From the NCBI GenBank assembly GCA_976551045.1, contig CDPCPM010000028.1, positions 13,764,001 to 13,828,000 on the forward strand: a stretch of DNA of 64,000 bases. Direction: 5' to 3'. The translations under genes were made by a program, and so were the position numbers. The notes beneath the pieces were generated by a model. It saw only the letters and a list, made by a program, of their open reading frames with translations. It ran no database searches and was not told the origin of the DNA. This DNA is from Glaucostegus cemiculus (Eukaryota). Of this stretch, positions 15,931-57,650 are shown piece by piece; positions within the stretch are counted from its first letter, which is position 1; each line of letters starts with the position of its first letter.

Positions 15931-16567
15931 TATCATTCAGAACCAAAACACAGCAGATGCTAGAGGTGTGAAACATTAACCTGTGCCTCTCTACACAGAT
16001 GTTGCCAAGACTGCTGATTAAAAATGTGAAAATCTGGAATGTATTCATTTATTACCCATTTGTTTCTATATTCTATCCCACTACTTATGTCCAAGATTAA
16101 GTCAGCAAACTAACTGAACTGTGTAGCTGCAATCCTATTCACCTTCACCCCTGCTCCTAATCCTTTTACAATCTCATACTTCAAATACAGCACTAGCATT
16201 TTCATACCACTTTCCATGGTCTGCAATTGTCTCAAAACAGTTTATAAGCAATTAAATTCTTTTGAAACACTCACTGTTCTAATCAAGGAAGTGCAATAAG
16301 CATTGTGCATAGGCTTCAAATAAAAAACATGATGATGGCAATGCATTATATCTTTGTGGTGTTGATTGAGAACTAAATATTGTCCAGAATACCGGATCTC
16401 CAAATCCTGAAGTAGGGCTTGAATGAACAATTTTCTGCCTCAGGCAAGACTGACACCATTCCCATCAGATTGAAATATTCCCTTGAAACTGTATTTATTA
16501 TCTGTCCACTTATTCCACTGACCTGTTTATGCTCTCCCAAAGCATGTTCCAATCTGCCACGCTGTTT

Positions 16568-24400: not shown

Positions 24401-24894
24401 CCTTCAAGCTCATTCTGCCTTTCAATGAAGTCATAACTGATCTGAAACAGAAATCCACATGCTCACCTTTGACCTATACAGAGGCCCCCTTGTATACAAA
24501 GGAAACCCAACTTAAAATTCTCCCATATATTTCCAAAGTATTTTTCAAGTTTGTAATAATAACAAATGTTTCATGGTATGCATTAATGATTAAAAAGTTG
24601 CAGGGGTTGGAAATCTTTGAAAGGTTATTAACCCAAAATGTTAAATGTTTCTCTTTTTACAGATGCAACTTAAGTTGCAAAGTATTTTCAGCATTAACTG
24701 CTTTTATTCAACAGGGTTAATTATTTACTACAACTGTATCAAGTCCTGATTAGATCTCGTCGGGACGATTGAGGGTGAATCTGCACCACATGGGCACATA
24801 GCCAAAAAACGTGATCCTAATTTTTTTTGAAATGATATTTGGAAATACTTCCATGAGCAGTTGCTGAACATAGCTTTGAACCCACATCTACAAA

Positions 24895-25398
24895 TGAATC
24901 AGAATCAGTTTTATTGTCACTACTATATACATATTCAGTATGCATAGGAGTGAAATACCGTACTGCACAGATCAAGGCGCTCGTCACATTAAAAAAATAT
25001 GGGAGGCACAAAGACATAAAGACATTAACAATATTGGAACCACAAAATTAAATAGCGACTCGAATAAACAATCTTAGAGTGAGCGTACTGACGCAACAGA
25101 CAACGGACATTTAAAGTGCTGGTGCATTTCCGTACGCCTAGCATCCTTTGGTGTTGGCGGGAGGGATGGAGGGATGAGGGAGTTCATGGTTCTGATAGCT
25201 TGTGGGAAGAAGCTATTGCACAGTCTCGTTGTCCTTGCCCGGATGCACTGGAGCCTTCTTCCAGATGGCAAGAGTGTAAAGAGGTGGTAGGAGGGGTGAG
25301 AAGGTTCCGACATTATGTTTGTGATCGTTCTGACGCATCGGTCCTTATATATATCTGCAATAGAGGGTAGTGAGACACCTATGATCTTCCCTGGTGGT
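24895..25398 (-). mobile_element. Rex1/Babar LINE 3' end
   Basis: EPSHPSYHLFTLLPSGRR..SFFPQAIR; (GATTCT)n tail. Confidence 0.85.
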
Positions 25399-26194
25399 TA
25401 ATGTATTATATAGACAGCCTCCCCACCCCTCCCCTTCCCGTGTTATGGCAGTTTGGGTGACAGAAACTCCCCCTGATGGACTTCACAAGTCATTACCCAA
25501 AAAAATCTGGGATATGGAATAAAAATTCACTTTCATGAAATTTATGTGAAAAAGTAAATAAATAAACATTTTTGAAAAAACATCACATTACCTGATGCGT
25601 GCACAGATGACGTGGCTTCACCTAACAGAAAAGTGTGATGCAGACCATCTTCTAGGAATGTAACCATGTAACCACCCCCCACAATGCAAAGGGTTTGGCC
25701 GGTATTCTGTTGGTTTCATTACGAGTAGCGTTAGGGTGATTGTTCAATGAAATGAAAGAATTATGCAAGTTTATGTAGAGCAATACAATATGGATAGCTA
25801 CAGAAAAGAGGTTCCTGACTTATGACGAAGTTAGCTTGTAGACTGTTCTCAGGAACAGAACACTTATGTCACCCAGGGACCGCCTATATTCGTAACATGC
25901 TTGGCTAACAAAAATTCATCAGTTTCTGAATTGAAATTGATTACTTTAGCATTAACTGTCATTTGAGAAGTATGTTCAAAGCTAATTTCAGCAACTATGC
26001 ATGCAAGTATTTCCAAATGTCATTTTGATCTCATTTTTTGGCTTTGTCCCCGGTGGCAGATTTGCCAAAAAGCAGAAATAGTTTCTCTTTCTACAACAGT
26101 AAATTCCACTTAATGTTATGAAAACATGGGTCAGATTATTTTACAGGAACCTTACAGAAATGTTTGAAATTATGAGAGGCATGGATAAGGTAGA

Positions 26195-27682: not shown

Positions 27683-29039
27683 TACCATGCTGTCCTTCCA
27701 AATTTGACATACCCCTGTGTGTTGCCCACATCCACTCTCAATAGTCCCGACAAGGTCTTGTCAGGACCTGATATAGTTGTAGCACACAATTTACCCCATT
27801 GAATAAAAACAGTTAATGCTGGAAATATTTGCAAGTTCAACCATATCTGTAAAGGGAGTAACATTTAACATTTCAGGTTAATGACCTTTCAAAGATTTCC
27901 AACATCTGCAGTTTTTTTTGCTTTTCATTTATTCCCTTGAACTTCAGTCGTCTAGCTGAAAAAGCTTGCAAGCCATCTGTCTTTCTAATTAGTTTCTGTA
28001 CGCTGTCTGTGATGTCTTAAAATATGTCATAAATGATGTACACACTTGGACCCCTAAGTCTCTTTGTATCTCCAACATTTCCAGCCTACTGCCATTTAAA
28101 AAGATATTCTGCTCAATCCTTTTAATTATTAAGTTACAGTTGCTTACACTGAATCCATTTATCATCTTTTACTGAATCTATTTATAGCACTGAAATAGTT
28201 CCATCTACGCTGCGCATCTTTACTGTGTGAGTTAAAGGTAAAGTTGAATAAATGTGCTTCTATTGAATCATGTGAACTATAAATCAATAGTGAACAATTG
28301 CACACTCAACGCAAGCTTCTTGTAGAACACTTGTCACATCCTGCCACTTAGAAAACAAGACCTTCACCCTGACACTACCTCCAACCCTCAATAATTTGGC
28401 TTTCAATTCCAGGAAATGTAATGCTTAGAATCTTATTGGGGATTAATAACTTCCAGAAATTTATGTAAGCAACATTCCCGGGCATCCCTCCACTAACCTT
28501 AGATGTCTCTTCCAAAGATTCAAACAGGTTCAGCATATACTTTGAATTTCTTCAACTAAACACATTATTGACAACAGATGTTGAGCTAATTGGTCTGCAA
28601 GTCTCATTGCTACTGTTCACCTTTCCTAGAAAGCACAATAACATGCACAGACTTCCATTCGGAAGGAACAGTTCACAAATCTGTTCATTTAAAACCACTG
28701 GTGTAGAAACCATTCCACTGTGGTGATTTGTCACTGCTTGAAAAGCTCCTGATTATCCTTCTTTCCCTGATAAAACCAGAATACTGTATAAATTTACATA
28801 TCCTTAAAAGTTTACCTTCACCTTCTCTCATCTAGATTTCTTTATCACCTTTCCATTTGCATCTATCTAAACTCCAAAAGAAGTGCTTCTTTATACGTTT
28901 ATGTATTTTAATTTAGCTGTGTTGTCTGTAACCATTTTAGCCTCCCACAGTATTTTTGCAGTATCTAGTGATCCTGCCCAGTTTACTGTGGGTGTTTTGT
29001 TGAAAGATGATCGACCCAAATTGTTGAATCTTTTTCTCA

Positions 29040-29310: not shown

Positions 29311-30324
29311 TTGCTGCTTTCAACATTTTAATTACTATGAACAGTTTCCTCCTTATTACACCAAAACCTAAGTTCTCAGATCCACTTTTAAATACAGTGT
29401 TGTACTCTTACAATTGTTCTTGGACAAACATTTACATAAGCAATGAGGCATGAACAAAATTTCCTTCAAGACTTCATCAAACATGGCCTGTCTGATTGCT
29501 GGTTATATATTGTTGCAAATCAAAACTATCATGAACTCTGAAGAAACTTATTGCATTTCTGACATAATTTGGACTCCTTTTCCCAATTTCTTTGCATATT
29601 AAAATCCATCATCAACACCGTGCTTCTACTGTATGTCTAATATCTGCAACTAGAAATCTTACCACTTCAGCAGCATGGCAATATATTCCCAATAGAGCCA
29701 TTATTTGTTTCCTATTTCTTAATTTTATCCATAAAGTCTCCACTGCCTGCTTGCCTCTTATATATTTTCCTCACTCAAGTGATTTCATCACAATTCAGTC
29801 CTTATGTCCCCCCCACCAGATTCTCCATCTTTCCTGTGGACCTTATAATTTGATATATTCAGTTCTCAATCCCAACAGCCTTGCAGCTATGTTTCAGAAA
29901 TAATTACCACGATGTGCCTGCAGTTCACTTAATTTGTTTCTTCTACTCTGTGGTTCCACAAAATCATTCACAATGCTGGAACCATTTTTGGACACAATTT
30001 AATTTAAAATAACGTTCGGCATAGGTTATATGCTTTTTCTGAGGCTGTTCAACTCTTGGCGTAAAGCCTATTTTGATATCTAATATGAGCACTGACAAAA
30101 GGGTCATGGAATACATTTTATAACTCCCCTTTCTCTTTCTTCCCTGCATCCACCATCCCCTCAGGAAGTTTATTTGTCCTCATATAACTACTTGAAGTCC
30201 TCAAGTTTCTACTCAAGGTATGGAAATTGTCAATACGTCAATGCGTAGGTACAACCACTCTACACATTAGACACTTCAGATACTCTGGTATATAACATTT
30301 CAGACAAAACAGTTTTCCCACAGC

Positions 30325-31620
30325 AATCTTGCAGAAAACACAAAGACTGGTTGCATTGTGAATTGCGCAGAAGATTGCCAAAGGGGACAGCGAGATAGAG
30401 ATAAGCTGCAGTTATGGGCGGAGAAGTGGCAGATGGAGTTTAATCCTGGCAAGTGCAACGTGCCGCACTGTGGGAGACCCAACGTGAAAGGACACAGTTA
30501 ATGGCAGGATTCTCAATAGCATTGATGAACAGAGGGACCTTGCGGTCCAGGTACATGGTTCCCTAAAAGTGGCCGCACAGGTCGATAGGGTGGTAAAGGC
30601 GGCTTATGGCAATGCTTGCCTTCATTAACCGAGACATTGAGTTCAAGAGTCAGGATGTTACAGCTTTGTAAAACTCTGCTTAGGCCACATCTGGAGTATT
30701 GCATTCAGTTCCAGTCACCTCATTATAGGAAGGATGTGGAGACCTTGGAGAGGGCACAGAAGAGGTTCACCAGGAAGCTCCCTGGTTTGGAGGATGAATG
30801 CTATGAGGAGAGGTTGGAAAAGCCGGGGGCTGTTTTCTCTAGAGCGGCGGAGGCTGAGGGGAGATTTGGTAGAAGTTTATAAAATTATGCAAGGCATAGA
30901 GAGAGTAGACTGAAAGTATCTTTTCCCCAGGATTGAGATGTCTAGTACTACCATATGATAGGGTCTTTCAAGAGAGTGTTAGATAGGTACATGGAGCTAA
31001 GTAAAATAGAGAGCTATGGGTAAGCCTAGTAATTTCTAATGTAGGGACATGTAGGGCCACAAGAGGACATAGGTTTAAGGTGCTGGGGGGAAGATATAGG
31101 GGAGATGTTAGGGGTAAGTTTTTTACTCAGAGAGTGGTGAGTGCGTGGAATGGGCTGCCGGAGATGGTGGTGGAGGCGGATACGTTAGGGTCTTTCAAGA
31201 GACTGTTGGATAGGTACATGGAGGTAAATAAGATAGAAGGCTATGGGTAAGCCTAATAGTGTGGGGACATGTTCGGCACAGCTTTGTGGGCCGAAGGGCC
31301 TGAATTGTGCTGTAGATTTTCTATGTTCTATGTTCTAGAGGGCATGTATTTAAGGTGAGAGGTGAAAAGTACAATGGAAATGTGCAAGGCACTTTTTTTT
31401 GAAAACACAGAGTGGTGGGGACTGGGATGCACTGCCAGGGGTGGTGGTAGAGGCAGATAACATGGGAGTGTTTAAGAGACTCTTGGATAGGCAAATGAAT
31501 TTGTAGAGAAGGGAGGGATATTGTCACTGTGCAGGTAAAAGGGATTAGATTAATTAGGAGTAATTAGTTTAATACAACACTGTAAGATGAAGGGCCTGTC
31601 CGATGCCACATTATGTTCCA
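30325..31620 (+). mobile_element. older CR1 3' half with two tandem young CR1 tails inserted (~30951-31337)
   Basis: RPHLEYCIQF..RKDVETLERAQKRFTR; the host sequence TCTAGTACTA|GAGGGCAT is split by the insert. Confidence 0.85.
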
Positions 31621-32146
31621 GAATTCCATAATAATTTATCAGTTCAGGAGGAAGCACAGCTGTAATTTTCTCTAGCAATTTCAACTATATTCATTTAGCT
31701 TCTGAAGCCAGTTTCTGGACTTAGCTTACATCTGTGTAACGTAGCTAGAATACAGTTCCACTCTGATTTCAAGACAGTTATTAAAACTGACTCTCTGTAG
31801 TATGAAGAATAGTGACTGCAAATATTCATTTGTGCAGGAGAGAGTTTTCTGTGTGCTGTTAACTTATTTATTAGGATTGCCTCTGGGTTAAGTTAAAAGA
31901 AAATAGCAGCCAAATTTCTTTGAGGGAAGTAGGAAGTTGTATCCCCAGGGACTACTGATCTTTGTTTTATATTAATGACCTGGACTTGAATGTTAAGGAT
32001 GTCATTTCAAAGTTTGCAGATGACAAGGCTCCAATGTAGCAAGCAATGTGAAGGACTGTAAAGGACATCAGGAGGACACAGAGAGTGGAGAAACTTTGTG
32101 CAAAATTTAAAGGGTACAGTTTAATTGATGAATGAGGAAAGGCAAT

Positions 32147-32458
32147 CCTCATTCATCAACTTGCCAGGATTAAACTCCATCTGCCACTTCTCCGCCCATA
32201 ATTGCAGCTGATCTCTATCTCGCTGTCCCCTTTGGCAAGCTTCTGTGCAATTCACAACGCAACCAGTCTTTGTGTTTTCTGCAAGATTGCTGTGGGAAAA
32301 CCAGCAACCCAGAGCAGTTTGTTTATCCTATGCACCTCACTATTAAGTATGCTTAAACCAGAGTATCTGAAGTGCCTAATGTATAGTGGTTGGCACATGT
32401 TTGGCACAGTTTTGTGGGCCGAAGGGCCTGAATTGTGCTGTAGGTATCTATGTTCTAT
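32147..32458 (+). mobile_element. composite CR1-tailed insertion made of locally templated fragments, TSD GCAAT, inside an old + CR1 (~31965-32640)
   Basis: See top finding. CR1 tail at 32393-32458. Confidence 0.8.
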
Positions 32459-32642
32459 GCAATAGCAACTAAATATTACAACTTCTGAAGTGAGTGTAGA
32501 AACAGAGTTCTGCAGGAGTTGATGTACACAAACCCTGGCAGGTGGGAGGGCAAATTGATAAAACAGGTTTTTAAAGAAGTGTACAAAGGTGCTGGGTTTT
32601 ATTATTAGAAGAGTACAAGGAGCATTTGACAAGCCCAAGCTA

Positions 32643-33499: not shown

Positions 33500-33912
33500 C
33501 TGTACATCTCAATCTCAAGGTTGCAGAGCAGAAGAGATTTATTTGATTGGGAGCAGAAATGAGATACTTTGGTTATAATGGGCCAAACCATTTTCCTCCT
33601 TAGAGCAGAAAAAATAAAGAGATGTGATAAATGTGTTCAAAATCACGAATAGTTGGGTAAATACAGAAATTCCCAGTTAAAGAGGACACATAAAGGTGAT
33701 TTACAACAGAATTAGAGAAGACATGAGGGAACTTCAGCAATGAGATGTTGAGATCTGAAAGATATGCTCAGAATGGATGGTGGAAGCATACTTAATAGTG
33801 AGGTGCATAGGATAAACAAACTGCTGGGAAATAAATGGATGAATTAAAATGTTCAACCAAAGGGCTGCCATGGGCACAAGGGGCTGAATGGTCTCTCATG
33901 CTCTATTATGCT
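33500..33912 (+). mobile_element. old CR1 3' part
   Basis: TTTTCCTCCTTAGAGCAGA..AGAGGACAC..GGGCTGAATGG..TGCT tail. Confidence 0.55.
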
Positions 33913-42245: not shown

Positions 42246-45200
42246 TCCTCTCTCTCCCTCTCCCCCCAAACCCCTCTCTCCCCTTCCCTCTCCGTACTAT
42301 TCATGACTATCGGATCCCTCACAACCTCCTGTTGCAGGGAGAACAACCCAAGCTTTACTGTAGAAAACACCGGCTCATTGTGTTTCCTCACAGCATAGGG
42401 GTATCTCCCATGGAAATTTGTCATAATCCAATATGATCAGCCCAAATCCTTAGCTGACATAATCAAGAATACACTTTATGTTAATTACAAATATAACACT
42501 ATCAACTGTTGATTCAAACATTCAAAAGTTGGACCTACAGCAAATCACTGGGTCAGCATCTCCACTGAAATGATAAAGGACAACTTTTCCAAACATTGTT
42601 TCAACACAAGTGCAGCTCCTGTACTTTGAGCCTCAGACCAAGGTCTTCTTGGCAATCCATTCACAGAGGCCAGCGTTTCTTGTCTATCATTGCCAATTGG
42701 AATGAGGTGGATTGAAGATAATTCAGGAGCTTGTTACGCATCTAGCTCATTGGTCCCTCCAGAGCCAGGTACAACCTGGACCAGATATGGGAGGCAGTTT
42801 TTCTTCCTGCAAGGTCATTAGTGAACTAGATGGGTTCTATTAATGACCATCCTGCAATTTCATGATCACTTTTGCTGCTGACAGCTTCCTGTTCCAAATT
42901 CTCTTCAATTAATTGAATTTAAATTCCCTAGATGGCACTGGCAGGAGGTTCAAATGAGTGTGTTCAATAATCCACTCATTCTGTTACCATTAAAAAAATA
43001 CTCTTGCCTTATTTACAAAGAATGACAGGGACATTTCTGACAATCAGTTTATTGCTGAAAGAAGCAAACTATATTGATGGGAATATGACTAATTACAATT
43101 TCAATCATTTTTATAAATGCTCTTAAAAAATTAGATCCATATGTCTGAGTGCATTTGCCATAGAATTGCATTTTAAAAACTTGATACAAATCTATTTGTA
43201 CAACATTAAGAATTACAACTATAATAACCATACAGCTCAGGCAGATAAAACAAATTTTGTGCATGCAATACTTGGTTTAATTGAGATAAATTAAATGTAA
43301 ATATCATGCAAGATCCCAACTTATAATTATTATGGAAAATACTTGGTCGCAAGTCCTTTGGTTTGCTGCTGTTAGTACGCTACACTGAAAATTTGACCTA
43401 AGAAATATATTTCTGTTCCTGAAGGTTTTGCATTAAGAAAACTACAGCTGTGATAATTTAAAAGTCTTCCTTTAATTGGGGTACAAAAATTGCAAGTCAA
43501 GCAATGTTACATCCAGTCAGATGTGGAATTCTGAATTTTAATTAAACATGCTGACCCAGAATAATTCTGGTGCAGTGTCAAACCTTCTTCAGTCAAAATG
43601 TCTCCGTTCATGATACAAATGCCTTCTTAGCATCAAGAGTTTGAGTGTTTGCAGTGCTGGAGCAGGTGGTCAGTGTTTCAACAGGTTTTGTAGCAAAATA
43701 ATATGCAATCAATCAAAATTTGTTTAGCCAGAGGAATTAGTATCAGCCTTAAAGTACTACCTTAAAAAATACTGATCCAATCCAGCTGGCCAGTCTTCTC
43801 ACCTTGATCTTGATTTGCTTCTTAACAAATTGGTCTGTTTGTGTGTCAATTCCAAGGGATGAAAGACCAGCATAAATTTGGTGGGAATAAGCGGTTAAAA
43901 ATTTCACGTGAAATTAAAATTGTTGGGTTGCCTTCTCTCAAAGTAACATACAGACATCTGGGGTATATAGGACACTGACACCAATCTCTCTGGAAGCTCA
44001 TGAGTACCTATTGTCATTAAAAAAAGAACTCTTGCCTTACTTACAAAGGGTGACAGGGTTATTTCTGATAATCAATTTATTGCTTAAAGGAACAAACTAT
44101 ACTGATTGAAATTGTAATTAGACATCTAAGTATAACCATAAGAAAATCAAATAGTCAATGATTGTCTGGCTATAGAGTTGTTGGGACAATATGCAAAATT
44201 CAATGCACTTTACCAGAATTGATTAACTGGATTAACTAAATAAACCTGCCTAGAGAGATTTTCATGATTCATGAGGATCAGAGAATAGTTTAACCAAGTT
44301 TTATCTTGTTTACTCACTTCTCAGTGGATCAAGTAAATTGAGTATTCCATGAAAATGCAAGCTGAAGTGGGCTGCCTGAAAGATTTAAATCAGTGTGCTT
44401 TTTTTTTAAAACTCCACACATTATGTGCACACAATGTTATTCTTTGGCAATGTTTGACATTGACTTGAAGGACAAAGAATAATAAGCAATCCTAGCAAAA
44501 GTGTTATCAGATTGATAAAAACCTTGGTTAAAGTGGCTGAAAATAATTGAACTGTTTTTCTCCATTATATGCATAGCTTGCAAACCTCGATGAATACTAT
44601 TCTTAATAATATTGTTTCCTTCCAGTACTTGGCATATTTTAACAATTACAGTAATAGACCCAATTACAGAATTTATCATTCTGAAAGTAATACTTTAATT
44701 TTTTTTCATTTCATTTTTTAAATTTGAAAGCACCGGTTCTCAAAGTAATAGAAATATTCTATATTAAGGCCCATGTTCCTATTACATTGTACTTAATTTG
44801 TTCCAGCAGAGCCAATGTACTTTTTTTAACCATTAAAGACTTTGTATAAATTTAGCCAACTTTACCTTAGGACCACCAGCTGATAATAGAGTAATCATAC
44901 GTGAATTAACTTCATCTACTTGGTTTCATATGCAATGGGCATGCCCAGTTGTACATCTAATTAAAAAAGCTGTACTCTATCAAAAAGCTGCATTTTTCTC
45001 AACTTCCTTCTTATTTTATCCATGAGCTTGTTCTGCAGATATATCTAAGTGTGTATGGATTCAGAAGTCCCTGAAAGCACTAATAAATATGGCGAGAACA
45101 GATGGTCACAAATCTCACATGGAATCAATACTGCTGTGCAGCTATTTCTCTAAGTCACGGTACAGATGTCCAAGGTATATGGGTTGCTGACGCTAAGCTC

Positions 45201-56199: not shown

Positions 56200-57650
56200 G
56201 ACCCAGGTGCGCAGTGAGCGGCCGCTGCCCCCTCTCCACACCTCAAACCGAAAAAGGCAGGGAGATGCAAAAGGTCGGGACGCAGCTTCCAGGGGGCAAG
56301 TGACAACTCAAAAGCTGACAAACGCAGAACCCGCAAGCTGCATTTAAAACAGAACCACGGGTTTAAGAGGCACCGTTTGCATCCCGTAACTCCCTCCAAA
56401 GGTTTGAGAATTTCCACACTGAAACAGCGTCTCATTCCAATTGTTTGAAGCCGCTGCTGCTGCTCCGGCGTCCGGCCGTTCGCCTCATCCCCAGCAGATG
56501 CAGCAGAACATTTTAATGCCAAACACAGTGAGCACAAACTCAAGCGCCGAGTGATCAAGGGGGAGAGAGAAAAATTATTGATGGGAAGTCCTTCAAATGA
56601 ACGACAAAGCACCGTACCTTTTGGAGCTCTCCGCAGGATCTGACAGCGGCACTTAAAGGAGACAGCTATCATTCTTCCCCCTCAGTCCTCTAGCAGCGGC
56701 CGAGTGCGTTCAAAGCGGTGCTCTGAAGGAATGCAGCAGGAGCCGCTGTGCTCCCGGGGGCAGCCTGCTCCCCGGGGGTGGGACGCCGGGACGGCCGCTC
56801 CAGCGCACACTGAACGCCGGAGAAATCACTGCCCCCCGACGTGCCAAATCCCAATGACAACCGTGACCTGGACGTAACAATGGTGATTCTACATTTCAAA
56901 CGTTTGCCTGTAACATCACGTCCACCAGCAGCCAAGCCTGCGCGGTAATTACCAGATGTTAGTATCTGCTGCCAAGAAGCCGCAATAAATAACTGACCCT
57001 TGTAACTCAAAGGGGTTTTTTTTTGGGGGGGGGGAATGGTCCTCAAATGTTCACATCAGCTGCGAGTCTCCATCGCTGTTCCACTCTCAGCGGCCGGCTT
57101 TGCCAAGGTATCCTAAATGCCTGCAAGGGAAATCTGCATAGCTCATCAGCATACAATCCCGTCAATATTTACTGAGCAGCTTCCGCCCCCTCCGCCGGCT
57201 GATTCCTCCACCGACTTGCCCCGGACCCGTCAGACGCCGCAAGTCCGAGCAGGATTGCAGGAGATTCCCCACCAACGTCCACACCCCATCCCATCCCTGG
57301 GAACAAGTCCCGGAGAAATATTACTAACTCGTTACGCACCAGGTAAGCAAATCGAAATCAAAGCTGCAGGCAGCACGAATGGGAATGAGCCCCCACCCGC
57401 TTCAAGGCGACAGTTTCAGATTTCATTCAGTGCACCGGTGGAGATCCCGTCGCCACTGTGAACATCTGCACAACGTCCGTGGAGTGAGTGTGCCCCAGCG
57501 GCGCACACCCCGGCTGCCCTCCCCACTGTTGCACAGCCCGCAGCTCCTGGGTTTGCGTTAAAAAGGACGGGTTGGTCTTTCAGCGGGCTGATCCGACCTG
57601 ACATTCCACCCTCCTGTCCCCGGTACACCGCCCCCGTAGTGACCCAGCCT
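56200..57650. promoter_or_regulatory. CpG-rich island, 5'UTR and probable promoter of GRIP1 exon 1
   Basis: Sharp rise in GC and CpG (gcggccgc, ccgggacggccgc, ccgccccctccgccgg) in an otherwise CpG-poor window. Repeat-free and surrounds the start codon. GC-box-like CCGCCCC near 57183 and 57628. Confidence 0.75.
56618..56672 (-). CDS. GRIP1: GRIP1 coding exon 1 (GRIP1a-type N-terminus, 55 nt, phase-1 end)
   Basis: Translates MIAVSFKCRCQILRRAPK+G, versus mammalian GRIP1 MIAVSFKCRCQILRRLTKD. In-frame TGA 12 nt upstream of the ATG, A at -3, donor AAG|GTACGG. The rest of ORF 56136-56672 is intron read-through. Confidence 0.95.

What the first reader, a model, noticed from the sequence alone, without database searches (positions are those of the whole stretch)
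32142..32463. Patchwork retro-insertion: a CR1 tail fused to four locally templated fragments, all in host-transcript sense
Seen: between two copies of GCAAT (32142-32146 and 32459-32463, splitting an old CR1) lie (i) 32146-32159, reverse complement of the adjacent 32125-32138 (14/14); (ii) 32159-32301, reverse complement of 30312-30454 (5 mismatches in 143 by eye, including non-CR1 flank); (iii) 32308-32354, reverse complement of 33784-33828 (2-nt extra, with a CCAGCA stutter before it); (iv) 32357-32392, reverse complement of 30252-30289; and (v) a ~65-nt CR1 3' tail. Donors lie on both sides within 2 kb and are out of order. Every piece is inverted, so it reads in GRIP1 pre-mRNA sense colinear with the CR1 tail. 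Established: LINE RTs template-switch during TPRT (e.g. U6-L1 chimeras). Inference: a single TPRT event in which CR1 RT hopped repeatedly onto nascent host intronic RNA or local minus-strand DNA. Pol theta/MMBIR-type repair of the 5' junction is the alternative.
Basis: partly seen in the sequence, partly recalled or inferred. Interest (0 to 1): 0.72.

Follow-up and report, generated by a model that had tools for sequence, protein, structure and literature searches.

The report
CR1 insertion with patchwork repair filler
A stub of a jumping gene landed in an intron and was joined to the chromosome through four short backwards copies of neighbouring DNA; related species lack the whole patch, so the event is real, but it is likely a DNA-repair by-product of a kind already described for human jumping genes and shows no sign of function.

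Summary
A 317-bp insert between two GCAAT copies consists of four inverted local copies plus a 65-nt CR1 tail. Three related organisms each have one contig crossing the empty site, with a single GCAAT and no deletion. Piece ii matches its local donor best genome-wide (97% versus 86% or less). Piece iv carries two relatives' alleles that the donor later lost. This supports one target-primed insertion. A GRIP1-like gene lies on the minus strand. The RNA-template reading is not excluded but has no support beyond orientation. In 1.86 Mb of intragenic DNA of known strand, such pieces were not enriched at retroelement 5' ends (9/1179 versus 9/2358 random). Of 8 other candidates, 4 fit the RNA rule, 3 broke it and 1 was uninformative. 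DNA-templated 5'-junction repair is the likeliest mechanism. Nearly the same architecture is published for human L1 (PMC11702581 Fig. S10B), and the scan noted similar scars on other DNA before.

The parts
32142..32146 (+). left copy of the 5-bp target-site duplication
   Evidence: sequence; single copy at the empty site in 3 relatives
32146..32159 (-). piece i: fold-back copy of 32125-32138, 7-nt loop, 1-nt overlap with the target duplication
   Evidence: 14/14; background 10 of 265,721
32159..32301 (-). piece ii: inverted copy of 30312-30454 (old CR1 fragment plus its flank)
   Evidence: 138/143; best genome-wide non-self hit
32301..32312 (-). stutter: repeated short copies of 33822-33828 with one unassigned base and a 2-nt duplication
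   Evidence: read from the alignment
32313..32354 (-). piece iii core: inverted copy of 33784-33825
   Evidence: 42/42
32354..32392 (-). piece iv: inverted copy of 30252-30292; its last ~20 nt also resemble the CR1 sequence just 5' of the retained tail
32395..32459 (+). piece v: 3' tail of a young CR1 family
   Evidence: 64/64 to 5 other copies; 3957 exact copies of its last 44 nt in the genome
32459..32463 (+). right copy of the target-site duplication; first base shared with the tail
32125..32138 (+). donor of piece i
30312..30454 (+). donor of piece ii
   Evidence: present in relatives up to 30358
30252..30292 (+). donor of piece iv, 19 nt from the donor of ii
   Evidence: present in 3 relatives
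33784..33828 (+). donor of piece iii
   Evidence: region covered by contigs of 3 relatives
31949..32600 (+). old, decayed CR1 fragment split by the insertion (ends approximate)
56618..56672 (-). first coding exon of a GRIP1-like gene (name recalled from its N-terminal peptide); places the insertion in a minus-strand intron
   Evidence: PDZ-like exons continue on the minus strand about 20 kb left of the window

Best explanation
This is a single, heavily 5'-truncated CR1 insertion whose 5' junction was likely filled by repeated short rounds of DNA-templated synthesis from nearby single-stranded DNA before the ends were joined. Shown: 5-bp target duplication, empty site in relatives, local donors, no target loss. 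Inferred steps: (1) the CR1 endonuclease made a 5-nt staggered cut and reverse transcription from the right end produced about 65-85 nt of cDNA; (2) the free left 3' end folded back on itself (piece i); (3) it then primed with about one base pair on DNA opened 1.3-1.9 kb to either side, probably at resection or unwinding fronts, copying ii, detouring to iii with a stutter, and returning 19 nt further on for iv; (4) synthesis stopped when iv gave enough patchy likeness to the cDNA to anneal. The enzyme would be a host repair polymerase of the polymerase-theta/SDSA/MMBIR type, or the CR1 protein acting on DNA; the sequence cannot tell these apart, nor prove the direction of synthesis. The product is a neutral intronic scar.
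For: One event: all pieces and the tail are absent together in 3 of 3 relatives laid, with one GCAAT, and piece i starts on the last base of the target duplication. True donors; mismatches in ii fall on both copies, 2 insert-side, 2 donor-side, 1 unresolved, polarised with 8 dispersed copies. Four of four joints left of the tail show a 1-nt overlap, one of them only with the relatives' allele, and there is a stutter. A 5' fold-back occurs in a young gene-sense CR1 (C643 region 87686), where pre-mRNA copying would give a direct copy (n=1). A Rex/Babar-like LINE in a minus-strand gene has a 189-bp direct local copy abutting its 5' end, with two further pieces in mixed orientation. A mixed-orientation local duplicate with no annotated retroelement lies in the same intron, 42988-43107. 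The iv/tail zone keeps donor sequence, including the window's allele at 30255, yet shares 7 nt with CR1; 135 of 8000 random windows score as well. Published L1 cases with this anatomy are attributed to processing of the reciprocal DNA end (PMC11702581), and zebrafish LINE 5' extra nucleotides are flank-templated (PMC4760211).
Against: All four pieces are in pre-mRNA sense, and the only other clear CR1 case found (C104 region 16031-16213) is too. Simple resection exposes opposite strands left and right of a break, so one piece must come from a strand not plainly exposed; a single RNA template needs no such extra step. Polymerase-theta-type templated insertions are usually a few to 35 bp and close to the break (PMC11724301 passages), not 143 bp at 1.7 kb. 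The counter-examples are few: the Rex case has no confirmed target duplication or empty site, and the iv/tail likeness was noticed after the fact. Fold-backs at 5' junctions were not significantly enriched (4/204 versus 37/4000, p=0.14).
Confidence: 0.6

Rival explanations
1. The CR1 reverse transcriptase jumped four times from its own RNA onto nascent GRIP1 pre-mRNA (or onto the displaced sense strand of a transcription bubble), copying iv, iii, ii and i in that order.
For: All 4 pieces are in transcript sense and colinear with the tail; all donors fit on one 3.6-kb stretch of one transcript. The C104 case agrees. L1 ORF2p template-jumps in vitro (PMC10830420 passages), and one L1 co-insertion of nearby precursor mRNA is reported (PMC10191854 passage). 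One-base overlaps also fit template jumping.
Against: Orientation carries about two independent draws. Among 8 other raw 5' candidates, 4 fit, 3 break the rule and 1 is a copy of the element itself (several are doubtful as events). None of the insert-specific changes is an A-to-G in transcript sense, and no splice junction is copied. No RNA run was available to test expression.
Confidence: 0.25
2. Pre-existing single-stranded fragments (cleaved flaps from resection of both ends) were captured and ligated into the junction rather than synthesised in sequence.
For: Proposed for some L1 cases in the Fig. S10A legend of PMC11702581; donors lie at similar distances on both sides.
Against: The donors are intact, piece i is a fold-back, the stutter implies re-priming, and a uniform orientation is not expected.
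Confidence: 0.1
3. Two events: an ordinary CR1 insertion, then a later break inside it repaired by a proximal repair-mediated duplication.
For: Locally unique duplications at least 100 bp apart are common here: 39 clusters in 1.864 Mb, most not at a CR1 5' end. They are not enriched at 5' ends.
Against: The patch begins exactly at the last base of the left target copy and folds back on the adjacent flank; relatives lack both parts.
Confidence: 0.05

Closest known systems
L1-driven insertions with templated genomic pieces, PMC11702581 Fig. S9C and S10B (read: passages, section 7, supplement legends; figures not seen)
   Same: S10B is a retrocopy plus four short sequences mapping near the site, at breakpoints 4 bp apart; S9C is an inverted duplication beside L1. 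The authors attribute both to processing of the reciprocal DNA end.
   Different: Cultured human cells with induced L1; here a CR1, in the germ line, aged about 3.5% between copies, with every piece inverted.
L1 'templated insertions', bioRxiv 10.1101/2024.08.27.596794 (read: passages)
   Same: 22 chimeric L1s duplicating genomic DNA, templates under 250 bp, SDSA-like model.
   Different: Templates typically within 15 bp of the site; here three pieces come from 1.3-1.9 kb away on both sides.
Fold-back inversions and pre-mRNA co-insertion at somatic L1 sites, PMC10191854 (read: passages)
   Same: Fold-back 5' of the target (n=3, plus 1 with an internal inversion), ascribed to DNA polymerases; one co-insertion of nearby precursor mRNA by strand switching.
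   Different: Single extra pieces; the RNA case is one example.
5' extra nucleotides of zebrafish LINEs ZfL2-1 and ZfL2-2, PMC4245944 (parts 2-3 of 5) and PMC4760211 (passages)
   Same: About 5-bp target duplications; extra 5' bases templated by flanking DNA during annealing-type end joining.
   Different: Donor distance and number of pieces were not given in the passages read; the primary paper (Kajikawa 2012) was not read.
Repair-mediated duplications, PMC2671141 (read: passages)
   Same: Donors within 5 kb (mean 1.2 kb), mean length 162 bp, 20 chimeric cases, found in fish as well.
   Different: None of the 39 proximal cases inspected had a polyA/T tract; chimeras had two donors.

Membership tests
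CR1 target-primed insertion | intact family 3' tail at the 3' junction | tested here: met
   64/64 to 5 other copies
CR1 target-primed insertion | short target-site duplication confirmed by an empty site | tested here: met
   5 bp, 3 of 3 relatives; candidate 4-6 bp duplications in 17 of 40 young copies, rough automatic calls
LINE insertion with locally templated 5' pieces | extra 5' sequence matches local DNA better than dispersed copies | tested here: met
LINE insertion with locally templated 5' pieces | extra pieces arrived with the element | tested here: met
   absent together in relatives, inside one target duplication; no intermediate allele could be sought
RNA template-switch chimera (U6-L1 type, or pre-mRNA co-insertion) | pieces colinear with the element in RNA sense | tested here: met
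   4 of 4 in minus-strand gene sense
RNA template-switch chimera (U6-L1 type, or pre-mRNA co-insertion) | RNA-only mark (splice junction, editing, mature RNA end) | tested here: not met
   intronic donors only; no insert-specific A-to-G change; such marks need not be present in short intronic pieces
RNA template-switch chimera (U6-L1 type, or pre-mRNA co-insertion) | orientation follows host transcription across many events | tested here: inconclusive
   4 fit, 3 break, 1 uninformative among 8 other raw candidates
Polymerase-theta / SD-MMEJ templated insertion | fold-back, 1-2 nt priming, iterative synthesis | tested here: met
   piece i, four 1-nt overlaps, stutter; these features are recalled, and template jumping can give them too
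Polymerase-theta / SD-MMEJ templated insertion | short templates close to the break, usually with a deletion | tested here: not met
   donors 1.3-1.9 kb away, up to 143 bp, no target deletion
Polymerase-theta / SD-MMEJ templated insertion | genetic dependence on POLQ | not testable with these tools
   needs a cell assay
Proximal repair-mediated duplication | donor within 5 kb, length under about 600 bp | tested here: met
Proximal repair-mediated duplication | no retrotransposition marks | tested here: not met
   CR1 tail and target duplication are present

The most novel reading that the evidence does not exclude
A CR1 reverse transcriptase hopped four times along the nascent transcript of the gene it was inserting into, leaving and re-entering the same RNA 19 nt apart, in the germ line: a fossil record of transcription-coupled serial template jumping that could be read genome-wide as a map of germline transcription.
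Probability: 0.22. Interest if true: 0.55.

Novelty: new member of a known kind. Interest (0 to 1): 0.26.

Why it matters
As a single scar it matters little: it is intronic and shows no sign of function. It is an unusually clean germline example, with a proven empty site and allele-level dating, that LINE 5'-end joining can pull in several kilobase-distant pieces without losing target DNA, in a clade and animal group for which one aimed search listed no such report. With about 4000 exact-tail copies in this genome, a genome-wide orientation test of RNA versus DNA templating is feasible; that test, not this locus, would be the result of interest.

Tried and rejected
Assembly artefact: rejected; the copies differ from their donors by 3.5%, carry alleles seen in relatives, and two joints are spanned by own-species contigs. 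Dispersed-repeat origin of ii: rejected. Pfam scans of 300 of 431 open frames of the window found no PDZ exon, and the genome-wide PDZ search listed no match at this locus, with 150 of 309 candidates scored; the gene was placed by motif search instead. No RNA holder was listed. Run X2 laid nothing on the donor stretch. Enrichment of local pieces at 5' junctions was not found by three screens: ungapped 8/618 at 5', 5/618 at 3', 22/3090 random; gapped 9/1179, 7/1179, 9/2358; short matches in 204 of 271 tailed elements after dropping those with poorly supported ends. The ungapped screen missed the C104 and C12b cases, so counts are lower bounds. Among 50 young family copies fetched, 10 had their 5' end outside the locus; none of the other 39 besides this one showed a distant local piece of 20 nt or more attributable to the insertion, within flanks of only 0.6-1.7 kb, and some loci are repeats of each other. 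Candidates set aside on inspection: a minisatellite around a Rex copy, an AT microsatellite, a piece internal to a SINE, probable long target duplications and low-copy repeats. PMC12016303 had none of the terms sought.

Full report
Observation. Piece i matches 14/14, piece ii 138/143, the core of iii 42/42, and iv has two substitutions and a 2-nt gap. The tail is identical over 64 nt to five other copies. Piece ii matches its local donor better than any of the other 38 scored matches in the genome. The split host is an old CR1 fragment that reads through across the site.

Host gene. A coding exon whose peptide I recall as the GRIP1 N-terminus lies on the minus strand at 56618-56672, and PDZ-like exons follow on the same strand about 20 kb left of the window. 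The name is recalled; the strand is shown. The animal is probably a shark or ray; this label comes from recall of the repeats and from earlier unchecked notes on the same genome.

One real event. Contigs of three related organisms cross the site with a single GCAAT, lacking all 317 bp and losing no target DNA. Both left donors and the right donor region exist in these relatives. At 30271 and 30290 the copy has the relatives' base and the donor differs, so the donor changed after copying. At 30255 and 30287 copy and donor agree against all three relatives. The five mismatches in ii fall on both copies. Copy and donor differ by 3.5%, and window and organism B by about 6% (21/359, 37/568, 45/778), so the event is roughly half as old as that split; this is a rough estimate.

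Joints. Target/i, i/ii, ii/iii and iii/iv each overlap by one base, the last only with the relatives' allele. Before iii the same few donor bases are copied repeatedly. The donors of iv and ii are 19 nt apart, so iii is a detour to the other side of the site. The iv/tail zone keeps donor sequence but shares seven bases with the CR1 sequence just 5' of the retained tail, and the two insert-specific changes in iv move it towards CR1. Random windows score as well in 135 of 8000 cases. This is a weak, after-the-fact hint that the final annealing was between a donor-derived top strand and the cDNA.

RNA or DNA template. Because the element is antisense to the gene, transcript sense and inverted are the same thing here. 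I fetched 1.8 Mb of DNA between same-strand PDZ or laminin-G exons and, with the window, surveyed 1.864 Mb. Locally unique pieces abutted 9 of 1179 retroelement 5' ends, 7 of 1179 3' ends and 9 of 2358 random points (p=0.14). Leaving out this locus, 4 of 8 raw 5' candidates fit the RNA rule, 3 break it and 1 copies the element itself; several are doubtful. The clearest other CR1 case (contig C104, a 183-bp inverted copy of DNA 200-400 bp downstream, candidate 5-bp target duplication) is also antisense and inverted, so it fits both readings. Against a general RNA rule stand a fold-back at a young gene-sense CR1, a Rex/Babar-like LINE with a direct 189-bp piece and two further pieces in mixed orientation (no target duplication confirmed), and a mixed-orientation duplicate without an annotated retroelement in this same intron. 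The survey is too small to settle the question. It does show that the architecture is rare: no further case among 39 other young copies with short flanks.

Mechanism. I commit to DNA-templated filling of the 5' junction of a target-primed CR1 insertion (0.6), ahead of serial jumping on pre-mRNA (0.25), capture of cleaved fragments (0.1) and two separate events (0.05). The insertion, target duplication and donors are shown. Template type, enzyme and direction of synthesis are inferred. The DNA model has a cost: resection exposes opposite strands on the two sides, so one piece must have used a flap, bubble or sister strand.

Known kinds. PMC11702581 reports three L1 insertions with nearby templated DNA (section 7), and the legend of its Fig. 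S10B describes a retrocopy with four short pieces from near the site (figure not seen). bioRxiv 10.1101/2024.08.27.596794 reports 22 templated insertions (passage; supplements not seen). PMC10191854 reports fold-backs and one pre-mRNA co-insertion (passage). Flank-templated 5' extra bases are described for zebrafish LINEs (PMC4245944 parts 2-3; PMC4760211 passages), snap-back junctions for R2 (PMC11371274 passages), and proximal repair-mediated duplications for vertebrates (PMC2671141 passages). PMC10830420 shows that L1 ORF2p jumps templates and copies DNA and RNA about equally (passages). I also saw passages of PMC11724301 and PMC2718515 and the abstract of PMC13174262. Eight searches were run; only aimed at CR1 in sharks, and none of its 6 listings was on this topic by title or abstract start. 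Earlier notes of this scan describe similar scars in this and other genomes; I did not check them.

Verdict. Real, well dated and ordinary in kind: a new member of a known class, interest 0.26.

Noticed in passing
window 42988-43107: Local duplicate without an annotated retroelement: 91 bp direct copy of 44015-44106 (86%) followed by 23 bp inverted copy of 44103-44125.
   Followed up: partly
window 24592-24897: Older inverted likeness to 27733-27917 (82%) and 25959-26051 (84%), abutting the 3' end of a Rex/Babar-like element at 24896-25386; possibly an old patch or low-copy repeats.
   Followed up: partly
G000:C104:447031-447463 (L113): Second CR1 insertion with a 183-bp inverted copy of DNA 200-400 bp downstream at its 5' end and a candidate 5-bp target duplication.
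   Followed up: partly
G000:C12:2589888-2590539 (L111): Rex/Babar-like LINE stub preceded by three local pieces (direct, inverted, direct) from both sides; no target duplication confirmed.
   Followed up: partly
G000:C643:803686 (L168): Young gene-sense CR1 with a 12-bp fold-back of the flank at its 5' junction.
   Followed up: partly
L239, L216, L248: Young CR1 copies with, respectively, an apparently inverted CR1 segment at the 5' end, a short snap-back on the element's own 5' end, and an iterated direct repeat of the target.
   Followed up: no
L231, L232, L233: Three CR1 copies share both flanks, so one insertion was multiplied inside a larger repeat.
   Followed up: no
G000:C76:17432865-17434414 (L083): Long inverted repeats (93-97%) that look like the ends of a DNA transposon; the class is recalled.
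   Followed up: no
window 30312-32301: Piece ii and its donor could pair as a 143-bp stem in the GRIP1-like pre-mRNA; no evidence on editing or splicing.
   Followed up: no
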